Below, piece after piece: positions 39,068 through 52,883 of a stretch of 64,000 nucleotides of DNA. Under the pieces are notes generated by a model. The model was not told the DNA's origin. It saw only the letters and a list, made by a program, of their open reading frames with translations, and made no database searches. Source of the DNA: Candidatus Helarchaeota archaeon (lineage in GTDB: Archaea > Asgardarchaeota > Lokiarchaeia > Helarchaeales > RDOG01); NCBI GenBank assembly GCA_019058315.1, contig JAHPZH010000002.1:448001-512000 (forward strand). Direction: 5' to 3'. How positions within the stretch are numbered: position 1 is the stretch's first letter; each line of letters opens with the position of its first letter. A program made the position numbers and the translations under genes.

Positions 39068-39080
39068 AATTAAAAAAAAA

Positions 39081-40334
39081 TTATTCTAGGTCTTCATTTT
39101 TTTTCTTTATCATATGAGCTAACTTTGCTTGTAGACCATATAACTCCATAAACCCTGCACTTGCCTTTTCATTGAATTTTGAAATTTTTTCATAAGTTGC
39201 GAGATTATAATCATAGAGTGCCCAATCAGATTTTCTCCCTACAATTTGTGCAGTTCCTTTATACAACTTAAGTCGAACTTCACCGTTTACTCGTTCATTT
39301 ACGTTATTTATAAATACATCGAGATCTTCTTTAAGTGGGTCAACCCAAAGTGCAGAATATACTAGATTAGCCCATTTTTCATCCACCAGAGATTTAAATG
39401 CAAATTCTTGTGTTGTACATACAGATTTTTCTAAATCTTTATGAGCACTAATTAGAAGAACTGCAGCAGGATTCTCATAAATTTCACGAGATTTAATACC
39501 AACTATACGATCTTCTAAATGATCTAAGCGCCCAATACTGTTTTTTCCACCGATGTCATTCAATTTTTGAATTAATTTTATACTGTCCATATGTTCACCA
39601 TTAATTGCCACAGGAATACCTTTTTGAAATTCGATAGTTATATATTCAACTTTATCTGGTGCATTTTTTGGATTGACTGTCCATTCAAAAGCATCTTCAT
39701 TTGGCTCCATTTCGGGATATTCCAAATCTGAACATTCAATACTGCGTCCCCATAGATTTTCATCAATAGAATATTTAGATTGGCTCGGTATAGGGATGGA
39801 ATGTTTTTTTGCATATTCAACTTCATCTTCTCTGTTGAATCCCCATTCGACAACAGGTTGAATAATCTTTATGTCAGGATTAATAGTATATGCGGTGACA
39901 GTGATCCTTACTTGATCATTCCCTTTACCTGTACATCCATGAGCTATCGCAGCAGCTCCTTCCTTTTTGGCGATTTTTATAGCCCACTTTGCTAATAATG
40001 GCCGGGATAATGCGGAATGTAAAGGATAAGTTCCCTCATATAATGCATTAGCTTTAAGCGCTGGAAAAACATAATTATCAATAAATTCTTGCTTGGCATC
40101 TATAGTAAAGTGCTTTTTCACACCTAATTTTTTAGCTTTCTCTTCAATCTTTTTGAAATCCTTTCCCCTCTGACCAATATCAAGAGTTAATGAGATCAAT
40201 GAACATTCATATTTCTCTTGAATCCATTTTAACATGACAGATGTATCTAACCCTCCACTATAGAGGAGAACTACTGTTTTTCCTTTTAATTCTTCTTTTT
40301 CTGGTTGAAAATTTGCTTTGAATAATTTGACCAC
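39081..40334 (-). CDS. argG: Argininosuccinate synthase (start uncertain)
   Basis: YSGGLDTS, HGCTGKGNDQVR, YSIDENLWGRSIE, GIKSREIYE. Confidence 0.95.
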   Translation of the reverse strand: MVKLFKANFQPEKEELKGKTVVLLYSGGLDTSVMLKWIQEKYECSLISLTLDIGQRGKDFKKIEEKAKKLGVKKHFTIDAKQEFIDNYVFPALKANALYEGTYPLHSALSRPLLAKWAIKIAKKEGAAAIAHGCTGKGNDQVRITVTAYTINPDIKIIQPVVEWGFNREDEVEYAKKHSIPIPSQSKYSIDENLWGRSIECSDLEYPEMEPNEDAFEWTVNPKNAPDKVEYITIEFQKGIPVAINGEHMDSIKLIQKLNDIGGKNSIGRLDHLEDRIVGIKSREIYENPAAVLLISAHKDLEKSVCTTQEFAFKSLVDEKWANLVYSALWVDPLKEDLDVFINNVNERVNGEVRLKLYKGTAQIVGRKSDWALYDYNLATYEKISKFNEKASAGFMELYGLQAKLAHMIKKKNEDLE

Positions 40335-49175: not shown

Positions 49176-49712
49176 TTACTTTTTTAATCTTTTAATCCTT
49201 TTTCTAATTTTTTTAATCGGTAAATTGCTTTTTTTATAATTTAATGTCATTATATCCTTTAGATATTTTAATTCTAATTTATAATCTTTTAATTCATGAT
49301 AAGACATTCCCAAATAATATAGAGTATTTAGATTCTCCGGATCTCTTTTCAGAATTTCTTTAAAACAACCAATAGCTTTTATATAATCTTCTAATTCATA
49401 ATAATAATATCCCAAATTATACCAAGCATCTAAAAATTCAGGGTTAATTGAAATTGCTTTTTTAAAACAACCACTTATTTTGTCTTCTAAATAAAAAATA
49501 TTTGGTTTTAATGAAAAAAAATTGATTATAAAGAAAATATGTGAGTAAAAGGGATCGAGATTAATATGAAGGTAGGCAATACCTAAATTATACCATGGAG
49601 TTGCTTTTTTAGAGTCAATTTTTAAAGACTTATTAAAACAAAGAATGGCTCTCTTATAATTTTTAGAAAGCATATTTTGATTTCCTTCATAAAACCAATC
49701 ATTTGCTTTCAT
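49176..49712 (-). CDS. TPR repeat protein
   Basis: WYNLG..Y...A..CF.KA..I.P repeats; hydrophobic insert in TPR2. Confidence 0.85.
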   Translation of the reverse strand: MKANDWFYEGNQNMLSKNYKRAILCFNKSLKIDSKKATPWYNLGIAYLHINLDPFYSHIFFIINFFSLKPNIFYLEDKISGCFKKAISINPEFLDAWYNLGYYYYELEDYIKAIGCFKEILKRDPENLNTLYYLGMSYHELKDYKLELKYLKDIMTLNYKKSNLPIKKIRKRIKRLKK

Positions 49713-49737
49713 TATTCTCCCTGAAACAAATAATTAA

Positions 49738-50949
49738 TTATTCCACTGAATCTAACAGTGCCAATAGGTTATTTCTAATCATATCGAGTTTTTCACGACA
49801 AGATGCTTCATTCTCAAACCAATTTATTAATGCATTATCAGAATCGAAATCATCTTGAGAAAATGTATAACTGAAAACGGAGTATAGGACGTCAATTTCT
49901 GAAGCCAAATAACCGATTTTTTCTAAAAAAGTTTGGTATTTTGAATGAAGAACTTTGTGTAATACTTCTCTCTTAATTTTTTTATTCTTCAGACCAAGAG
50001 ATTTTTTAATAAAAAGCCAAAATTCATCGATTGTATCTGAAATCTTTTCTAATTTTTTGATATAAAAAAATGTAAATTCTTCAAATTTTTTATTTGCTTG
50101 TTTTGGTGAAATGCTTTCAATTTCAAATTCTAGATGTTCTTCAATCCCTTCAAGTTCTTTCGTTTTAAGTTGATCTAAAATGGATGATTCATCTATTAAT
50201 TCTAAATCCGATTTATCTCCAACTTCTAATTCAGGTTCTTTAGTAGTAGGTTTTTCCACCAATATTTTCGGGGTTTCATCTCTTTCAAATTCAATTTGAT
50301 TTTTTAAATAATCAAATATAGTTAGGATAAACTGCAGATTCTCTGTTCTATCAATTCCAAATTCAGGGTGATCAATAAAAATATTAAAACCTCCTATCCC
50401 AAACACCCTATTATTTGGAGAAAAAACTGCTATTGGAGTGTTAGGTGGACTAGATTTCGGATTAGATTTTGCAATTACATTACAGGATTTATCAAGTATA
50501 TTAATAGAGCATCCAGAATAAATAATATATTTAAAATTTTCAGAAAAATGAATTGTTTCAAATTTCGAAATCTTAACTACAGCTGAAAGTCCCATATTAT
50601 CCTTTTCATCTTCTACTTGGTCATTATTAAATTCAAATTCAAATCTTCTCCCAATTTCACTAAGATTTGTATTATAGAAGAGATCTCCACCATTTCCACT
50701 AATTAATACTAACCCTTTTCCTCTTTCAACAAATTTTTCTAATGCCATTATTTCCGAATAGGAATAAGCTGTAGTTGGACAACCTAAAATAACTAGATCT
50801 TCTTCCGAAATTTTTTCTAAAGTAATTGGCGGCTGGATTAATCTAAAAATAACTCCACCTAAACGATTTAGAACTACTTGGAAACCTTCTGAATTTAAAT
50901 AATCCAAATTATTATTGTGGCTTTCATCAAGAACTATTTTAAAACTCAT
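49738..50949 (-). CDS. GIFT (GldG/IFT52-like) domain protein with acidic linker and helical C-terminus
   Basis: IVLDESHN, ITLEKI..DLVILGCP...SEIMALEKFVERGKGL..GNGGD...TNL..FEFNNDQV. Confidence 0.72.
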   Translation of the reverse strand: MSFKIVLDESHNNNLDYLNSEGFQVVLNRLGGVIFRLIQPPITLEKISEEDLVILGCPTTAYSYSEIMALEKFVERGKGLVLISGNGGDLFYNTNLSEIGRRFEFEFNNDQVEDEKDNMGLSAVVKISKFETIHFSENFKYIIYSGCSINILDKSCNVIAKSNPKSSPPNTPIAVFSPNNRVFGIGGFNIFIDHPEFGIDRTENLQFILTIFDYLKNQIEFERDETPKILVEKPTTKEPELEVGDKSDLELIDESSILDQLKTKELEGIEEHLEFEIESISPKQANKKFEEFTFFYIKKLEKISDTIDEFWLFIKKSLGLKNKKIKREVLHKVLHSKYQTFLEKIGYLASEIDVLYSVFSYTFSQDDFDSDNALINWFENEASCREKLDMIRNNLLALLDSVE

Positions 50950-51056
50950 GTTATTCTTTCATCTATTAATCAAATTTTTATATAATTCTATTTACCAAAA
51001 TTACAATAGTTAATGTAATATTTTATTTAAAATGTAAAAATTTTGGAGGTTATTTA

Positions 51057-51659
51057 TTGTTTAGAATTCCTGATGGAACTGAAATTAGAGCTCTAAGAAT
51101 AAAGGCAAGATTAACACAGACTGAATTAGCCAAAAAAGCAGGTGTAAGTCAATCACTTATCGCTAGAAAATAAAAGAAAAAAATTATTCTTTTATCTAGA
51201 ATTGAAACTGGAAGTGTTGATGCTCGTCTATCTACAATAAAAAAAATTTTAACAGCAATAGAAATGACTCTAATAGAGGATGAGGTCGTGGCAATTAGTT
51301 ATTCTACAAAAAATGTAACGCTCATTCGTGGAGATAAAACCGTTAATGAAGCTGCAAAAATTATGTCTGATAAGGGGATTTCTCAAATGCCAGTAATTAA
51401 TGAACAAGATAAAACTATAGGTTCGATAAAAGAAAAAACTATCATTAATAAACTTCTCCAAAATGGTCAAGAAATCTTAAATAATAAAATAGAATCAATA
51501 ATGGAGCCAAAAATACCAGAAATGCCGATAACTACAACCATCGAAGAAGCAAAGAAGATGTTATTACAACATGATGCGATTTTACTCACAAATGAAGAAG
51601 GTATCAAAGGAATTTTAACAAAAATCGATATAATCAAAGCTTATAGTAAAAAAGTTTAA
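51057..51659 (+). CDS. XRE-HTH plus tandem CBS transcription regulator (COG3620-like); join(51057..51168,51202..51659), 189 aa if spliced
   Basis: GGAGG SD and TTG start. MFRIPDGTEIRALRIKARLTQTELAKKAGVSQSLIAR continues, after a 33-nt insert, as IETGSVDARLSTIKKI into the CBS domains (GISQMPV, GILTKIDII) in the same frame. Confidence 0.85.
51169..51201 (+). other. Putative BHB (tRNA-type) intron in mRNA
   Basis: Outer helix UCG/UGA, central helix CUAG/CUAG, bulges AA^A and AA^U, inner helix AUAAAAGAA/UUCUUUUAU. Contains an in-frame TAA. Confidence 0.75.
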
Positions 51660-51787
51660 TTTAAGTTGAAGTTTTAAATAGAATTTTCAATAATAATAGA
51701 AAAATTAAATAAAATTAATATTCTTTCAAAAACTTTGATTAATATAATTTCCATAAAAAACTCAATTTAAAAGATAAAGTGAAAATT

Positions 51788-52549
51788 TTGAGCAATACAG
51801 AAAAAAAAGAAGAAGAACAAGAAGAAGAAAAAGAAGAAGAAGAAATTAAGCCTGAAGCAAAAATTTCACCTTTAGAAATTAAAATATTAAATGAATTACA
51901 AATATTACAATTTCTAGATAACATTATAGAAGACTCCCTTCTATATATTTACAATAAAACAGTTAAATATTTTCAAAAGGATATGGAAAATTTTATTGAA
52001 AACTCTGAATCTGAGTTAAGAGATGTTTGGAGGGACAATAAGAAAGAATTTGAAAATATATATACATTTTCTGAAGAATTTGCAAAAAAAAATGGAATTA
52101 AAAGATCACTACAAAAAGAAACCTTAATTTATTCAATTCCCATTTATGCTATAGTTATTGGATTTACATTTATTATTTATCTTTTTCCTCAGTTATTTTC
52201 TATAACACAAGAGTTTATGATGTATATTCTCTTTATACCTTTCCTCTTTCTTTGTATAACCAATTCAATAGTTTCAAGAATGGTAATCAATAAAAGAATG
52301 AAATTTCGAGATGAAAAAAGCCCTATATTAAAAGAACAAATAAAAGATTCTATAGAAAGTATTCGAAATGTAAATCAAATTATTATTAATGATATTAAGG
52401 ATCTCATATTAGAAAATGAATTCGTACCATCAAAATTTAAAGCTTATTTATATAATAAAGAATATGAAAATATCAAGGTATTAGAAACCAAAGAGCAACA
52501 TAAAATTCCAATACACCTTATTGGAATCGATGTTGATCAAAATCCATGA
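51788..52549 (+). CDS. 2-TM hypothetical protein with acidic N-terminus
   Basis: Poly-E N-terminus and two hydrophobic helices; TTG start after GTGA. Confidence 0.68.
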   Translation: MSNTEKKEEEQEEEKEEEEIKPEAKISPLEIKILNELQILQFLDNIIEDSLLYIYNKTVKYFQKDMENFIENSESELRDVWRDNKKEFENIYTFSEEFAKKNGIKRSLQKETLIYSIPIYAIVIGFTFIIYLFPQLFSITQEFMMYILFIPFLFLCITNSIVSRMVINKRMKFRDEKSPILKEQIKDSIESIRNVNQIIINDIKDLILENEFVPSKFKAYLYNKEYENIKVLETKEQHKIPIHLIGIDVDQNP

Positions 52550-52571
52550 ATAAATAAAGAAATTGATAGAA

Positions 52572-52883
52572 ATGTCTAATGAAATAGAAGTCAAATATAA
52601 AATCTTAAGTGAACATCTTATCTGGGTAGATGAAACACTAATAGATGAGTTAATTAGTTTTTTAGAAGAAAAATTAGGTTCTAATGTTGTAATATCCCGA
52701 GATAAAAATTTTGTTTTAATAGGTTTATCGAAAGATCATGATCTTTCTAAAAGAACTTTAAAAGTATATATTAAAAGGTTCTTACATAAATATGAATTAC
52801 TTGATAGGTTAAGAGTAATATCTGGTGACGAAGAAAGTTATATAATTCATAAACGAAGAGGTATCGAAGTTACACGCTTTTAA
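52572..52883 (+). CDS. rpl22e: Ribosomal protein eL22 (Asgard eukaryotic signature protein)
   Basis: LSKRTLKVYIKRFLHKYELLDRLRVIS..ESY parallels eL22 FSKRYLKYLTKKYLKK..LRDWLRVVA..ESY. Confidence 0.82.
   Translation: MSNEIEVKYKILSEHLIWVDETLIDELISFLEEKLGSNVVISRDKNFVLIGLSKDHDLSKRTLKVYIKRFLHKYELLDRLRVISGDEESYIIHKRRGIEVTRF

What the first reader, a model, noticed from the sequence alone, without database searches (positions are those of the whole stretch)
51057..51659. Candidate tRNA-type (BHB) intron inside the mRNA of an Asgard HTH-CBS transcription factor
Seen in sequence: the HTH reads ...GVSQSLIAR, then 33 extra nt containing an in-frame TAA (51171), then resumes in the same frame as IETGSVDARLSTIKKI plus CBS domains. 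The insert and flanks fold into a strict hBHBh': outer helix UCG(51160-62)/UGA(51203-05), 4-bp central helix CUAG(51163-66)/CUAG(51196-99), 3-nt bulges AAA(51167-69) and AAU(51200-02), and a perfect 9-bp inner helix AUAAAAGAA/UUCUUUUAU. Cutting after the second nucleotide of each bulge removes 51169..51201 and gives GCT AGA ATT GAA (A-R-I-E), the expected SQSLIARIE recognition helix, in a 189-aa protein. Established: archaeal EndA plus RtcB excise BHB introns, and the classic protein-coding example is cbf5 in Crenarchaeota. Inference: splicing gates production of a DNA-binding, adenylate-sensing regulator. Unspliced RNA gives a 38-aa stub and possibly a CBS-only protein from ATG 51264. This parallels the non-spliceosomal HAC1/XBP1 switch in eukaryotes, which also uses tRNA ligase.
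Basis: partly seen in the sequence, partly recalled or inferred. Interest (0 to 1): 0.93.

Follow-up and report, generated by a model that had tools for sequence, protein, structure and literature searches.

The report
tRNA-type intron splitting Asgard regulator gene
A 33-base insert that breaks a DNA-binding regulator gene of an uncultured Asgard (Helarchaeota) archaeon is very probably a tRNA-style intron cut out of the mRNA; at least six other protein genes in the same genome carry the same kind of intron, which is published for only one archaeal gene (cbf5).

Summary
An HTH_3 + 2xCBS gene (51057-51659) is interrupted at 51169-51201 by 33 nt carrying an in-frame TAA. Insert and flanks can form a strict hBHBh' motif: 3-bp outer helix, 4-bp central helix, 9-bp inner helix, two 3-nt bulges.

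Four other Helarchaeota contigs in the same gene neighbourhood carry an insert at the same codon. The five inserts are 33, 32, 31, 30 and 30 nt. In all five, cutting after bulge nucleotide 2 gives a full 189-192 aa ORF reading SQSLIAR|IE.

Three intron-less orthologues read exactly the predicted junction. Both exons are under purifying selection (dN/dS about 0.04-0.2). An independent sediment study holds both an insert-bearing and an insert-less DNA form.

The genome encodes two EndA paralogues, consistent with an (alpha-beta)2 enzyme, and RtcB. My genome-wide scan and follow-up found six more protein genes split by 26-32 nt BHB introns: aEF-2, rrp41-like, RNase Z-like, HDAC, HAD and PAC2.

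Splicing has not been shown at the RNA level, because no RNA run holds this locus. The HAC1-like "switch" idea and the CBS-only product are unsupported: close relatives lack the intron, and the internal ATG is not conserved.

Earlier notes of this scan reported such mRNA introns on other DNA and elsewhere in this genome. In the literature I searched, only cbf5 is confirmed.

The parts
51057..51168 (+). Exon 1: TTG start, then 37 codons plus 1 nt, encoding the first half of the HTH_3 domain up to ...SQSLIAR plus the first base of the Ile codon.
   Evidence: HTH_3 profile 1-28 of 55. Orthologues start with ATG at the same place. dN/dS is 0.04-0.2 between intron-bearing lineages.
51169..51201 (+). 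Predicted 33-nt BHB intron, with an in-frame TAA at 51171-51173.
   Evidence: Same-site inserts of 32, 31, 30 and 30 nt occur in L001, L004, L002 and L005. The insert is absent, with the exact predicted junction, in L006, L007 and L008.
51202..51659 (+). Exon 2: the last two bases of the Ile codon, the rest of the HTH, two CBS domains and the stop at 51657-51659.
   Evidence: (CBS, two stretches, E 8e-20), (dN/dS about 0.1).
51160..51162 (+). Outer helix h, 5' strand (UCG). It pairs with 51203-51205.
   Evidence: Pairing is kept in 93% of cells across orthologues, with C-G to U-G and G-U to G-C changes.
51163..51166 (+). Central 4-bp helix H, 5' strand (CUAG). It pairs with 51196-51199.
   Evidence: All cells are paired across the 5 distinct sequences, with one U-A to U-G change.
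51167..51169 (+). 5' bulge AAA. The predicted cut lies between 51168 and 51169.
   Evidence: The cut rule (between bulge nucleotides 2 and 3) is the one stated for cbf5 in PMC2738675.
51170..51195 (+). Inner hairpin h': 9 bp (51170-78 with 51187-95) and an 8-nt loop (51179-86).
   Evidence: The first 7 pairs are 97% paired across orthologues, with one A-U to G-C double change. The ninth pair changes from A-U to G-C in L001 and L005.
51196..51199 (+). Central helix H, 3' strand (CUAG).
51200..51202 (+). 3' bulge AAU. The predicted cut lies between 51201 and 51202.
51203..51205 (+). Outer helix h, 3' strand (UGA).

Best explanation
The 33 nt at 51169-51201 are an archaeal bulge-helix-bulge (tRNA-type) intron inside the coding sequence of an XRE-type HTH + CBS-pair regulator.

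The proposed mechanism has four steps:
1. The pre-mRNA folds locally into h(3 bp)-H(4 bp)-h'(9 bp) with two 3-nt bulges on opposite strands.
2. The splicing endonuclease EndA cuts after the second nucleotide of each bulge. Here EndA is a catalytic subunit plus a His-less paralogue, consistent with an (alpha-beta)2 enzyme.
3. RtcB joins the exons and probably circularises the intron.
4. The ribosome then makes the 189-aa protein, whose recognition helix reads SQSLIARIE.

Removal is most likely constitutive. The intron is one member of a set of at least seven 26-33 nt BHB mini-introns in protein genes of this genome.

Shown here: the anatomy, conservation, frame restoration, selection on the exons, and presence of the enzymes. 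Inferred: the cutting and joining of the RNA itself.
For: 1. Same-site inserts occur in four other Helarchaeota contigs with the same gene neighbours (IFT52_GIFT, HTH stub, CBS ORF, unknown gene, L22e): L001, L002/L003, L004 and L005.

2. The five insert lengths are 33, 32, 30, 31 and 30 nt. In L001 and L004 the two ORFs lie in different frames. In all five, the BHB cut rule gives a full 189-192 aa ORF reading ...SQSLIAR|IE(T/I)G....

3. The intron-less orthologues L006, L007 and L008 read GCTAGAAT(T/C)GAAAC or GCCAGAATAGAAAC, which is the predicted junction. More distant homologues also read SQSLIARIE without an insert.

4. The structure is kept: 97% of cells are paired, against 29-51% when the 3' partners are slid by 1-3 columns. 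There is an A-U to G-C double change plus wobble intermediates, and a further A-U to G-C change at the ninth inner pair in L001 and L005.

5. Both exons are under purifying selection between intron-bearing lineages even where dS exceeds 1. Examples are L001/L004 exon 1 at 0.06 and L002/L005 exon 1 at 0.04.

6. The insert is real DNA. It lies in a 100.8-kb contig of the source run. A contig from an independent study carries a 32-nt version, and another contig there lacks exactly 33 nt.

7. The machinery is present. There are two EndA-domain genes above the Pfam cut-off. The 184-aa one is closest to the Aeropyrum pernix EndA chain 3p1z_B and keeps the His (DHAPF). The 201-aa one has Pro where the M. 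kandleri enzyme has the His. There is one RtcB. ARAGORN tRNA genes, 16 of them with introns.

8. Six more protein genes of this genome are split by strict BHB motifs whose excision rebuilds a single domain:
- aEF-2, 31 nt, GTP_EFTU profile 2-79 | 82-151
- rrp41-like RNase PH, 32 nt, profile 1-59 | 64-129
- RNase Z-like, 29 nt, LLFDCGE|GTQ
- HDAC, 32 nt, profile 1-151 | 154-295
- HAD, 29 nt, FDLDGT|I
- PAC2, 26 nt
Decoy geometries (3-bp or 5-bp central helix) gave 0 paralogue-supported junctions, against 3 for the true geometry.

9. The aEF-2 intron sits at the same codon boundary in L025 (32 nt, AT-rich) and in a Jordarchaeia-like contig, L026 (28 nt, GC-rich, unrelated sequence).
Against: There is no RNA-level evidence. 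No spliced junction read, circular intron or cleavage assay exists, and no RNA run holds the locus, so splicing is inferred.

The formal covariation statistic on 5 distinct sequences is weak: 197 of 500 shuffles reach the observed value.

The MFE fold does not return the BHB register for the outer helix.

Two orthologues have one imperfect pair next to a bulge: G.A in the outer helix of L004 and A.C at the first inner pair of L005. They would need an endonuclease that tolerates relaxed motifs.

The (alpha-beta)2 assignment rests on sequence similarity only.
Confidence: 0.87

Rival explanations
1. The intron is real, and its removal is regulated. Splicing acts as a switch, like HAC1/XBP1, that controls how much of the DNA-binding, ligand-sensing regulator is made. 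Unspliced RNA would give a stub and/or a CBS-only protein.
For: Splicing is obligatory for the full-length protein. In the window the insert is in frame with an early stop, and an ATG lies at 51264. Both the archaeal pathway and metazoan XBP1 splicing use an RtcB-type ligase (established knowledge).
Against: The close relatives L006, L007 and L008 lack the intron, and their gene is under the same purifying selection. The Met at 51264 is not conserved: L001 and L004 have Thr/Ser-Leu there. In the 31-nt and 32-nt versions no common unspliced product exists. Six other genes of this genome, including housekeeping ones, carry the same type of mini-intron. No Ire1-like dedicated nuclease is needed or implied.
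Confidence: 0.08
2. The insert is an inert small insertion, such as a tiny hairpin element with a CTAGAA target duplication, that has killed the gene. The locus would then be a pseudogene or two independent small genes.
For: CTAGAA flanks the insert on both sides, at 51163-68 and 51196-201. Public annotation calls a 38-aa ORF and a CBS-only ORF.
Against: The insert has persisted at the same codon in lineages whose synonymous sites are saturated. Meanwhile exon 1 and exon 2 keep dN/dS of 0.04-0.2. All five variants restore the frame only under the BHB rule, although their lengths differ. The helices are maintained. The repeat is explained by the palindromic CUAG helix, and the other introns of this genome have none.
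Confidence: 0.03
3. The ribosome bypasses the 33 nt during translation, as in phage T4 gene 60. It would take off at AGA 51165-67 and land at AGA 51198-200, helped by the hairpin and the nearby stop.
For: In the window, matching AGA codons flank the gap in frame. A stop follows one codon after the take-off, and a hairpin lies between them.
Against: In L001, landing on AGA would give ARFE instead of the invariant ARIE. L002 has no AGA landing codon (CTGGTATCG). The aEF-2, rrp41-like, RNase Z-like and HDAC inserts have no matched take-off and landing codons. The geometry that is conserved is that of a BHB.
Confidence: 0.015
4. The insert is an assembly or sequencing artefact.
For: None found.
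Against: The locus lies in a 100,779-nt contig of the source run with no differences. A contig from an independent study carries a 32-nt version. Four other assemblies from NCBI, JGI, Logan and ENA carry same-site inserts.
Confidence: 0.005

Closest known systems
BHB intron of the cbf5 (pseudouridine synthase) pre-mRNA in Crenarchaeota (Watanabe 2002; Yokobori 2009, PMC2738675)
   Same: It is a short intron inside a coding sequence, bounded by a bulge-helix-bulge motif and cut between bulge nucleotides 2 and 3. The host has a hetero-oligomeric EndA. The intron was present in an ancestor and later lost precisely in at least two lineages (compared).
   Different: The phylum differs (Asgard/Helarchaeota) and so does the gene (a transcription-factor-like HTH-CBS protein). 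The motif here is strict rather than mostly relaxed. It is one of at least seven such introns in a single genome. Splicing of cbf5 was shown by cDNA; here it is only inferred.
Archaeal pre-tRNA and pre-rRNA BHB introns processed by EndA and RtcB
   Same: The hBHBh' geometry and the predicted enzymes are the same, and the size range matches. ARAGORN calls tRNA introns of 11-94 nt in this genome.
   Different: The motif is embedded in an mRNA with no tRNA body. Both flanking helices are built partly from codons, so the exon side is constrained by the protein sequence.
BHB-dependent cleavage in the 5' UTR of Haloferax volcanii HVO_1309 mRNA (PMC7714728)
   Same: It is an mRNA substrate of the archaeal splicing endonuclease.
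   Different: That site is in an untranslated region and does not interrupt the reading frame.
HAC1/XBP1 unconventional cytoplasmic splicing in eukaryotes
   Same: It is non-spliceosomal removal of a short intron from a transcription-factor mRNA, followed by joining with a tRNA-type ligase (RtcB in metazoa). This comparison rests on established knowledge.
   Different: The nuclease is Ire1 acting on twin stem-loops, not EndA acting on a BHB. Splicing there is stress-induced and changes the C-terminus. Here there is no evidence of regulation, and the intron is dispensable in close relatives.

Membership tests
Archaeal BHB (EndA-type) intron | A 4-bp central helix flanked by two 3-nt bulges on opposite strands. 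| tested here: met
   CUAG/CUAG with bulges AAA and AAU. The central helix is 100% paired in 5 distinct orthologous sequences.
Archaeal BHB (EndA-type) intron | Flanking helices h (exon side) and h' (intron side), giving the strict hBHBh' form. | tested here: met
   h is 3 bp and h' is 9 bp in the window. Across orthologues h is 93% paired and h' 97% paired. L004 and L005 each have one imperfect pair.
Archaeal BHB (EndA-type) intron | Cutting after bulge nucleotide 2 on each strand and joining the exons yields the functional product. | tested here: met
   In silico, 5 of 5 variants (33, 32, 31, 30 and 30 nt) give full ORFs reading SQSLIAR|IE. The junction is identical to that of the intron-less orthologues.
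Archaeal BHB (EndA-type) intron | The host encodes the splicing endonuclease EndA and the ligase RtcB. | tested here: met
   Two matches to PF01974 above the cut-off and one RtcB match at 582 bits. The catalytic-like and His-less paralogues are described.
Archaeal BHB (EndA-type) intron | The RNA is actually cleaved and re-ligated (spliced junction, circular intron). | not testable with these tools
   No RNA run holding the locus was listed.
XRE-type HTH + CBS-pair regulator (Pfam HTH_3/HTH_31 + CBS) | An N-terminal HTH_3 domain followed by two CBS domains in one polypeptide of about 180-210 aa. | tested here: met
   Exon 1 matches HTH_3 profile 1-28 and exon 2 has two CBS stretches. Uninterrupted homologues carry PF01381, PF13560 and PF00571. 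The spliced ORF is 189 aa. DNA binding and ligand sensing were not tested.
HAC1/XBP1-type regulated splicing switch | A functional unspliced isoform or conditional splicing, retained by selection. | tested here: not met
   There is no conserved alternative product; Met 51264 is absent in L001 and L004. The intron is missing in close relatives with no change in selection. Conditional splicing itself could not be tested.
Programmed translational bypass (T4 gene 60 type) | Matched take-off and landing codons flanking the gap in all functional versions. | tested here: not met
   They match only in the window and L005. L001 would give ARFE, and L002 has no landing codon.

The most novel reading that the evidence does not exclude
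Helarchaeota and related Asgard archaea routinely splice protein-coding mRNAs with the tRNA-splicing machinery. There would be at least seven, and probably more, interrupted genes per genome, including aEF-2, the exosome core and a transcription regulator. For the HTH-CBS regulator, the efficiency of this splicing would also couple regulator output to the cell's EndA/RtcB capacity, making it a primitive splicing-dependent gene switch in the lineage closest to eukaryotes.
Probability: 0.08. Interest if true: 0.92.

Novelty: new member of a known kind. Interest (0 to 1): 0.72.

Why it matters
In the literature I could search, EndA-type splicing of a coding sequence is confirmed for a single archaeal gene, cbf5 (PMC2738675, PMC7714728). 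I found no report of one in an Asgard protein gene.

This locus adds a regulator gene in an Asgard archaeon. It comes with unusually clean comparative proof: frame restoration with four different intron lengths, and intron-less alleles that have the exact predicted junction.

Together with six further split genes in the same genome, it suggests that mRNA splicing by the tRNA machinery is a regular feature of this lineage. That bears on how intron-tolerant gene expression arose near the origin of eukaryotes.

It also has a practical consequence. Public annotations call these genes as truncated fragments, for example 'CBS domain-containing protein' of 131-143 aa and EF-2 of about 613 aa. Gene prediction for Asgard genomes therefore needs a BHB-aware step.

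Tried and rejected
- **RNA evidence:** no RNA holder was listed for window 49700-52600, so expression and splicing could not be examined.
- **Rfam:** nothing in the window reached a gathering threshold.
- **MFE folding:** the 66-nt region gave a hairpin with another outer-helix register and a z-score of -1.93. That is not informative for a BHB.
- **Covariation shuffles:** on 5 distinct sequences they were not significant, 197 of 500. The slid-partner control was clear.
- **More orthologues:** The search for related loci with P0001 found no further orthologues in metagenome contigs or genome contigs. The GTDB order holds only 7 genomes, and the two other hits (G001, G003) are at 41-42% identity. 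G003's gene reads through uninterrupted, and G001's match had no internal stop.
- **False positives of the genome scan, checked and dropped:**
  - L018 (window about 39069-39103, the end of the argininosuccinate synthase gene), L020 and L021 join adjacent complete genes.
  - Two MvhD-like sites already have continuous natural frames.
  - L019, L022, L023 and L024 gave no support.
  - C3:321315-321338 and C11:353221-353336 have only low-complexity or repeat similarity.
- **Unverified candidate:** a 16-nt BHB candidate at C6:38360-38375 has the geometry and open frames, but neither exon matches a family.
- **Homing endonuclease:** Pfam gave no endonuclease-type hit on the two flanking genes, and none is listed among the called neighbours in L001-L004. 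I did not search for one directly.

Full report
**What is in the sequence**

The + strand frame opening at TTG 51057 reads MFRIPDGTEIRALRIKARLTQTELAKKAGVSQSLIARK and stops at TAA 51171-51173. After 33 nt the same frame continues as IETGSVDARLSTIKKI... to the stop at 51657-51659.

Exon 1 matches Pfam HTH_3 profile positions 1-28 of 55, and the downstream part carries two CBS domains. So one helix-turn-helix domain is cut in its recognition helix.

- outer helix UCG 51160-62 with UGA 51203-05
- central helix CUAG 51163-66 with CUAG 51196-99
- bulges AAA 51167-69 and AAU 51200-02
- inner helix of 9 bp, 51170-78 with 51187-95
- 8-nt loop 51179-86

On each strand the order, read 5' to 3', is central-helix strand and then bulge. 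From my own knowledge of archaeal pre-tRNA structure, this is the canonical BHB topology. The cut between bulge nucleotides 2 and 3 is the rule stated for cbf5 (PMC2738675).

An MFE fold keeps the hairpin and central helix but shifts the outer helix, and its z-score is only -1.93. Thermodynamics alone would not have picked this out.

**Comparative evidence for the intron**

Homologues name the lineage as Helarchaeota. Four further contigs from independent assemblies show the same gene order: IFT52_GIFT gene, 38-aa HTH stub, CBS ORF, unknown gene, L22e. They are L001 (NCBI MAG GCA_013375355.1), L002/L003 (JGI), L004 (Logan) and L005 (ENA).

At the same codon they carry inserts of 32, 30, 31 and 30 nt. 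In L001 and L004 the two ORFs lie in different frames.

Applying the BHB rule to each gives an uninterrupted ORF of 189-192 aa reading ...SQSLIAR|IE(T/I)G... in all five. A length-variable insert that restores the frame only under the BHB cut rule is hard to explain except by excision at the bulges.

Three orthologues (L006, L007, L008) have no insert. Their DNA reads the predicted spliced junction; L006 is identical to the window's prediction, GCTAGAATTGAAACT. More distant relatives also read SQSLIARIE without an insert.

**Structure conservation**

On the alignment of the junction regions, the named structure is paired in 97% of cells. With the 3' partners slid by 1-3 columns the figure is 29-51%.

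The changes are of the expected kind:
- C-G to U-G and G-U to G-C in the outer helix
- U-A to U-G in the central helix
- A-U to G-C, with a G-U intermediate, at the fifth inner pair
- A-U to G-C at the ninth inner pair in L001 and L005

With only five distinct sequences the shuffle statistic is not significant (197 of 500). L004 and L005 each have one imperfect pair next to a bulge.

**The gene is alive**

Nei-Gojobori estimates between intron-bearing lineages give dN/dS of 0.04-0.2 for exon 1 and about 0.1 for exon 2, even where dS exceeds 1. That excludes a decaying pseudogene. It also shows that the 37-codon HTH part is still selected as protein.

On a protein tree, the intron-less L006 groups with window and L001 (support 83/98). 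The intron-less L007 and L008 group with the intron-bearing L002 (80/81). The intron stems are alike in sequence across lineages. The simplest history is therefore one gain and at least two precise losses, the same pattern described for cbf5.

**The insert is real DNA**

The source run has a 100,779-nt contig identical over the stretch. In an independent sediment study, one contig carries the insert with one base fewer (32 nt) and an A>T change at 51201. Another contig, about 87% identical, skips exactly 33 nt. No RNA run holds the locus.

**Machinery**

The genome (5.79 Mb, 12 contigs; the window is C5:448001-512000) has two EndA-domain genes and one RtcB.
- The 184-aa EndA is most similar to the Aeropyrum pernix EndA chain 3p1z_B and keeps the His (DHAPF).
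- The 201-aa paralogue has Pro where the M. kandleri enzyme has that His.

This is consistent with the (alpha-beta)2 heterotetramer, the broad-specificity type linked to cbf5 splicing and reported for most Asgard genomes (bioRxiv 10.64898/2026.10.13.758758). ARAGORN tRNA genes, 16 of them with introns.

**A class, not a one-off**

I scanned the whole genome for strict hBHBh' motifs of 20-120 nt and found 21,690 of them. I kept the 581 whose excision fuses two open frames, and then asked whether an uninterrupted paralogue aligns straight across the junction. Decoy geometries with a 3-bp or 5-bp central helix gave 0 supported junctions, against 3 for the true geometry.

After inspection and Pfam tests on the separate exons, plus leads from earlier notes that I re-tested, six further split genes hold:

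| Gene | Location | Length | Evidence |
|---|---|---|---|
| aEF-2 | C6:81229-81259, minus | 31 nt | DTPGH\|VD; GTP_EFTU 2-79 \| 82-151 |
| rrp41-like RNase PH | C10:138945-138976, minus | 32 nt | profile 1-59 \| 64-129 |
| RNase Z-like | C6:64108-64136, plus | 29 nt | LLFDCGE\|GTQ |
| HDAC family | C10:146806-146837, plus | 32 nt | profile 1-151 \| 154-295 |
| HAD | C6:32233-32261, minus | 29 nt | FDLDGT\|I |
| PAC2 | C1:81769-81794, plus | 26 nt | exon 2 starts at profile position 14 |

None of these six lengths is a multiple of three.

The aEF-2 intron is at the same codon boundary in L025 (32 nt) and in a Jordarchaeia-like contig, L026 (28 nt, GC-rich, unrelated sequence, same geometry). 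Public gene calls for these EF-2 genes are about 613-636 aa instead of about 730.

Among ORF-joining motifs of 70 nt or less, the aEF-2 and HTH-CBS introns rank first and second by helix quality.

**Rivals**

- **Regulated HAC1-like switch.** It is not excluded but has no support. The intron is dispensable in close relatives, no alternative product is conserved (the Met at 51264 is missing in L001 and L004), and housekeeping genes carry the same kind of intron.
- **Gene-60-type ribosomal bypass.** It fits the window (AGA ... AGA) but fails in L001, where it would give ARFE, and in L002, which has no landing codon. It also fails in the other genes.
- **Pseudogene or artefact.** Both are excluded.
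- **CTAGAA direct repeat.** It follows from the palindromic CUAG helix and is not seen at the other introns.

**Comparison with what is known**

In the library I searched, cbf5 is the only coding sequence with confirmed EndA-type splicing. One further mRNA substrate, Haloferax HVO_1309, is cut in its 5' UTR. The 2009 paper notes that other cases were only predicted. I found no report for an Asgard protein gene.

Earlier notes of this scan had already reported such mini-introns in other genomes and in this one (rrp41, HDAC, rnz, EF-2, HAD, PAC2). I treated these as leads. My scan recovered four of them independently, and I re-tested the HAD and PAC2 leads directly.

**Verdict**

It is a new member of the cbf5 kind, in a new gene and phylum. 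The switch reading is speculative. The missing piece is RNA-level proof.

Noticed in passing
L015:2730-2760 (G000 C6:81229-81259, minus strand); also L025:671-702 and L026:673-700: The aEF-2 gene is split inside its GTPase G3 motif (DTPGH|VD) by a strict 31-nt BHB intron. The same site carries a 32-nt intron in another Helarchaeota MAG and a 28-nt GC-rich intron of unrelated sequence in a Jordarchaeia-like contig. Public calls of these EF-2 genes are about 613-636 aa instead of about 730.
   Followed up: yes
L017 (G000 C10:138945-138976, minus strand): An RNase PH (exosome rrp41-like) gene is split by a 32-nt strict BHB intron. Exon 1 matches RNase_PH profile 1-59 and exon 2 matches 64-129 plus RNase_PH_C.
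   Followed up: yes
L016:1109-1137 (G000 C6:64108-64136, plus strand): An RNase Z-like metallo-beta-lactamase gene is split by a 29-nt BHB intron. The junction rebuilds LLFDCGE|GTQ.
   Followed up: yes
L027 (G000 C10:146806-146837, plus strand): A histone-deacetylase-family gene is split by a 32-nt BHB intron (Hist_deacetyl profile 1-151 | 154-295). The spliced motif reads DHDAHAGNGT, with Ala where the paralogue has the second His.
   Followed up: partly
L028 (G000 C6:32233-32261, minus strand) and L029 (G000 C1:81769-81794, plus strand): A HAD hydrolase gene (29 nt, FDLDGT|I) and a PAC2 proteasome-chaperone gene (26 nt) are also split by BHB mini-introns. The 5' exons are only about 15 and about 25-34 codons long, so ordinary gene callers miss them.
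   Followed up: yes
L030 (G000 C6:38360-38375, minus strand): A 16-nt BHB-like insert lies in a small Cys-rich ORF. The geometry and open frames fit an intron, but neither exon matches a family.
   Followed up: partly
window 49738-50949 (minus strand): The divergent neighbour of the regulator gene encodes a 403-aa protein with an IFT52 GIFT domain (Pfam PF23355, E 2.5e-10). This eukaryote-like domain is conserved next to the regulator gene in L001 and L004.
   Followed up: no
L012:1228-1782 (G000 C12) and L013:1474-2079 minus strand (G000 C1): There are two EndA paralogues, one with the catalytic His and one with Pro at that place, which suggests an (alpha-beta)2 splicing endonuclease. The His-less gene overlaps the start of a 455-aa ORF that I did not identify.
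   Followed up: partly
window 39069-39103 (minus strand; G000 C5:487069-487103): A strict BHB-like hairpin at the 3' end of the argininosuccinate synthase gene would fuse it to the next ORF. The synthase domain is already complete (profile 218 of 219), so this is a chance or terminator-like hairpin and not an intron.
   Followed up: yes
G000, one contig at about 627,600-631,800 (from ARAGORN output): A dense tRNA gene array lies here, with many intron-containing genes. ARAGORN calls introns in 16 of 40 tRNA genes genome-wide.
   Followed up: no
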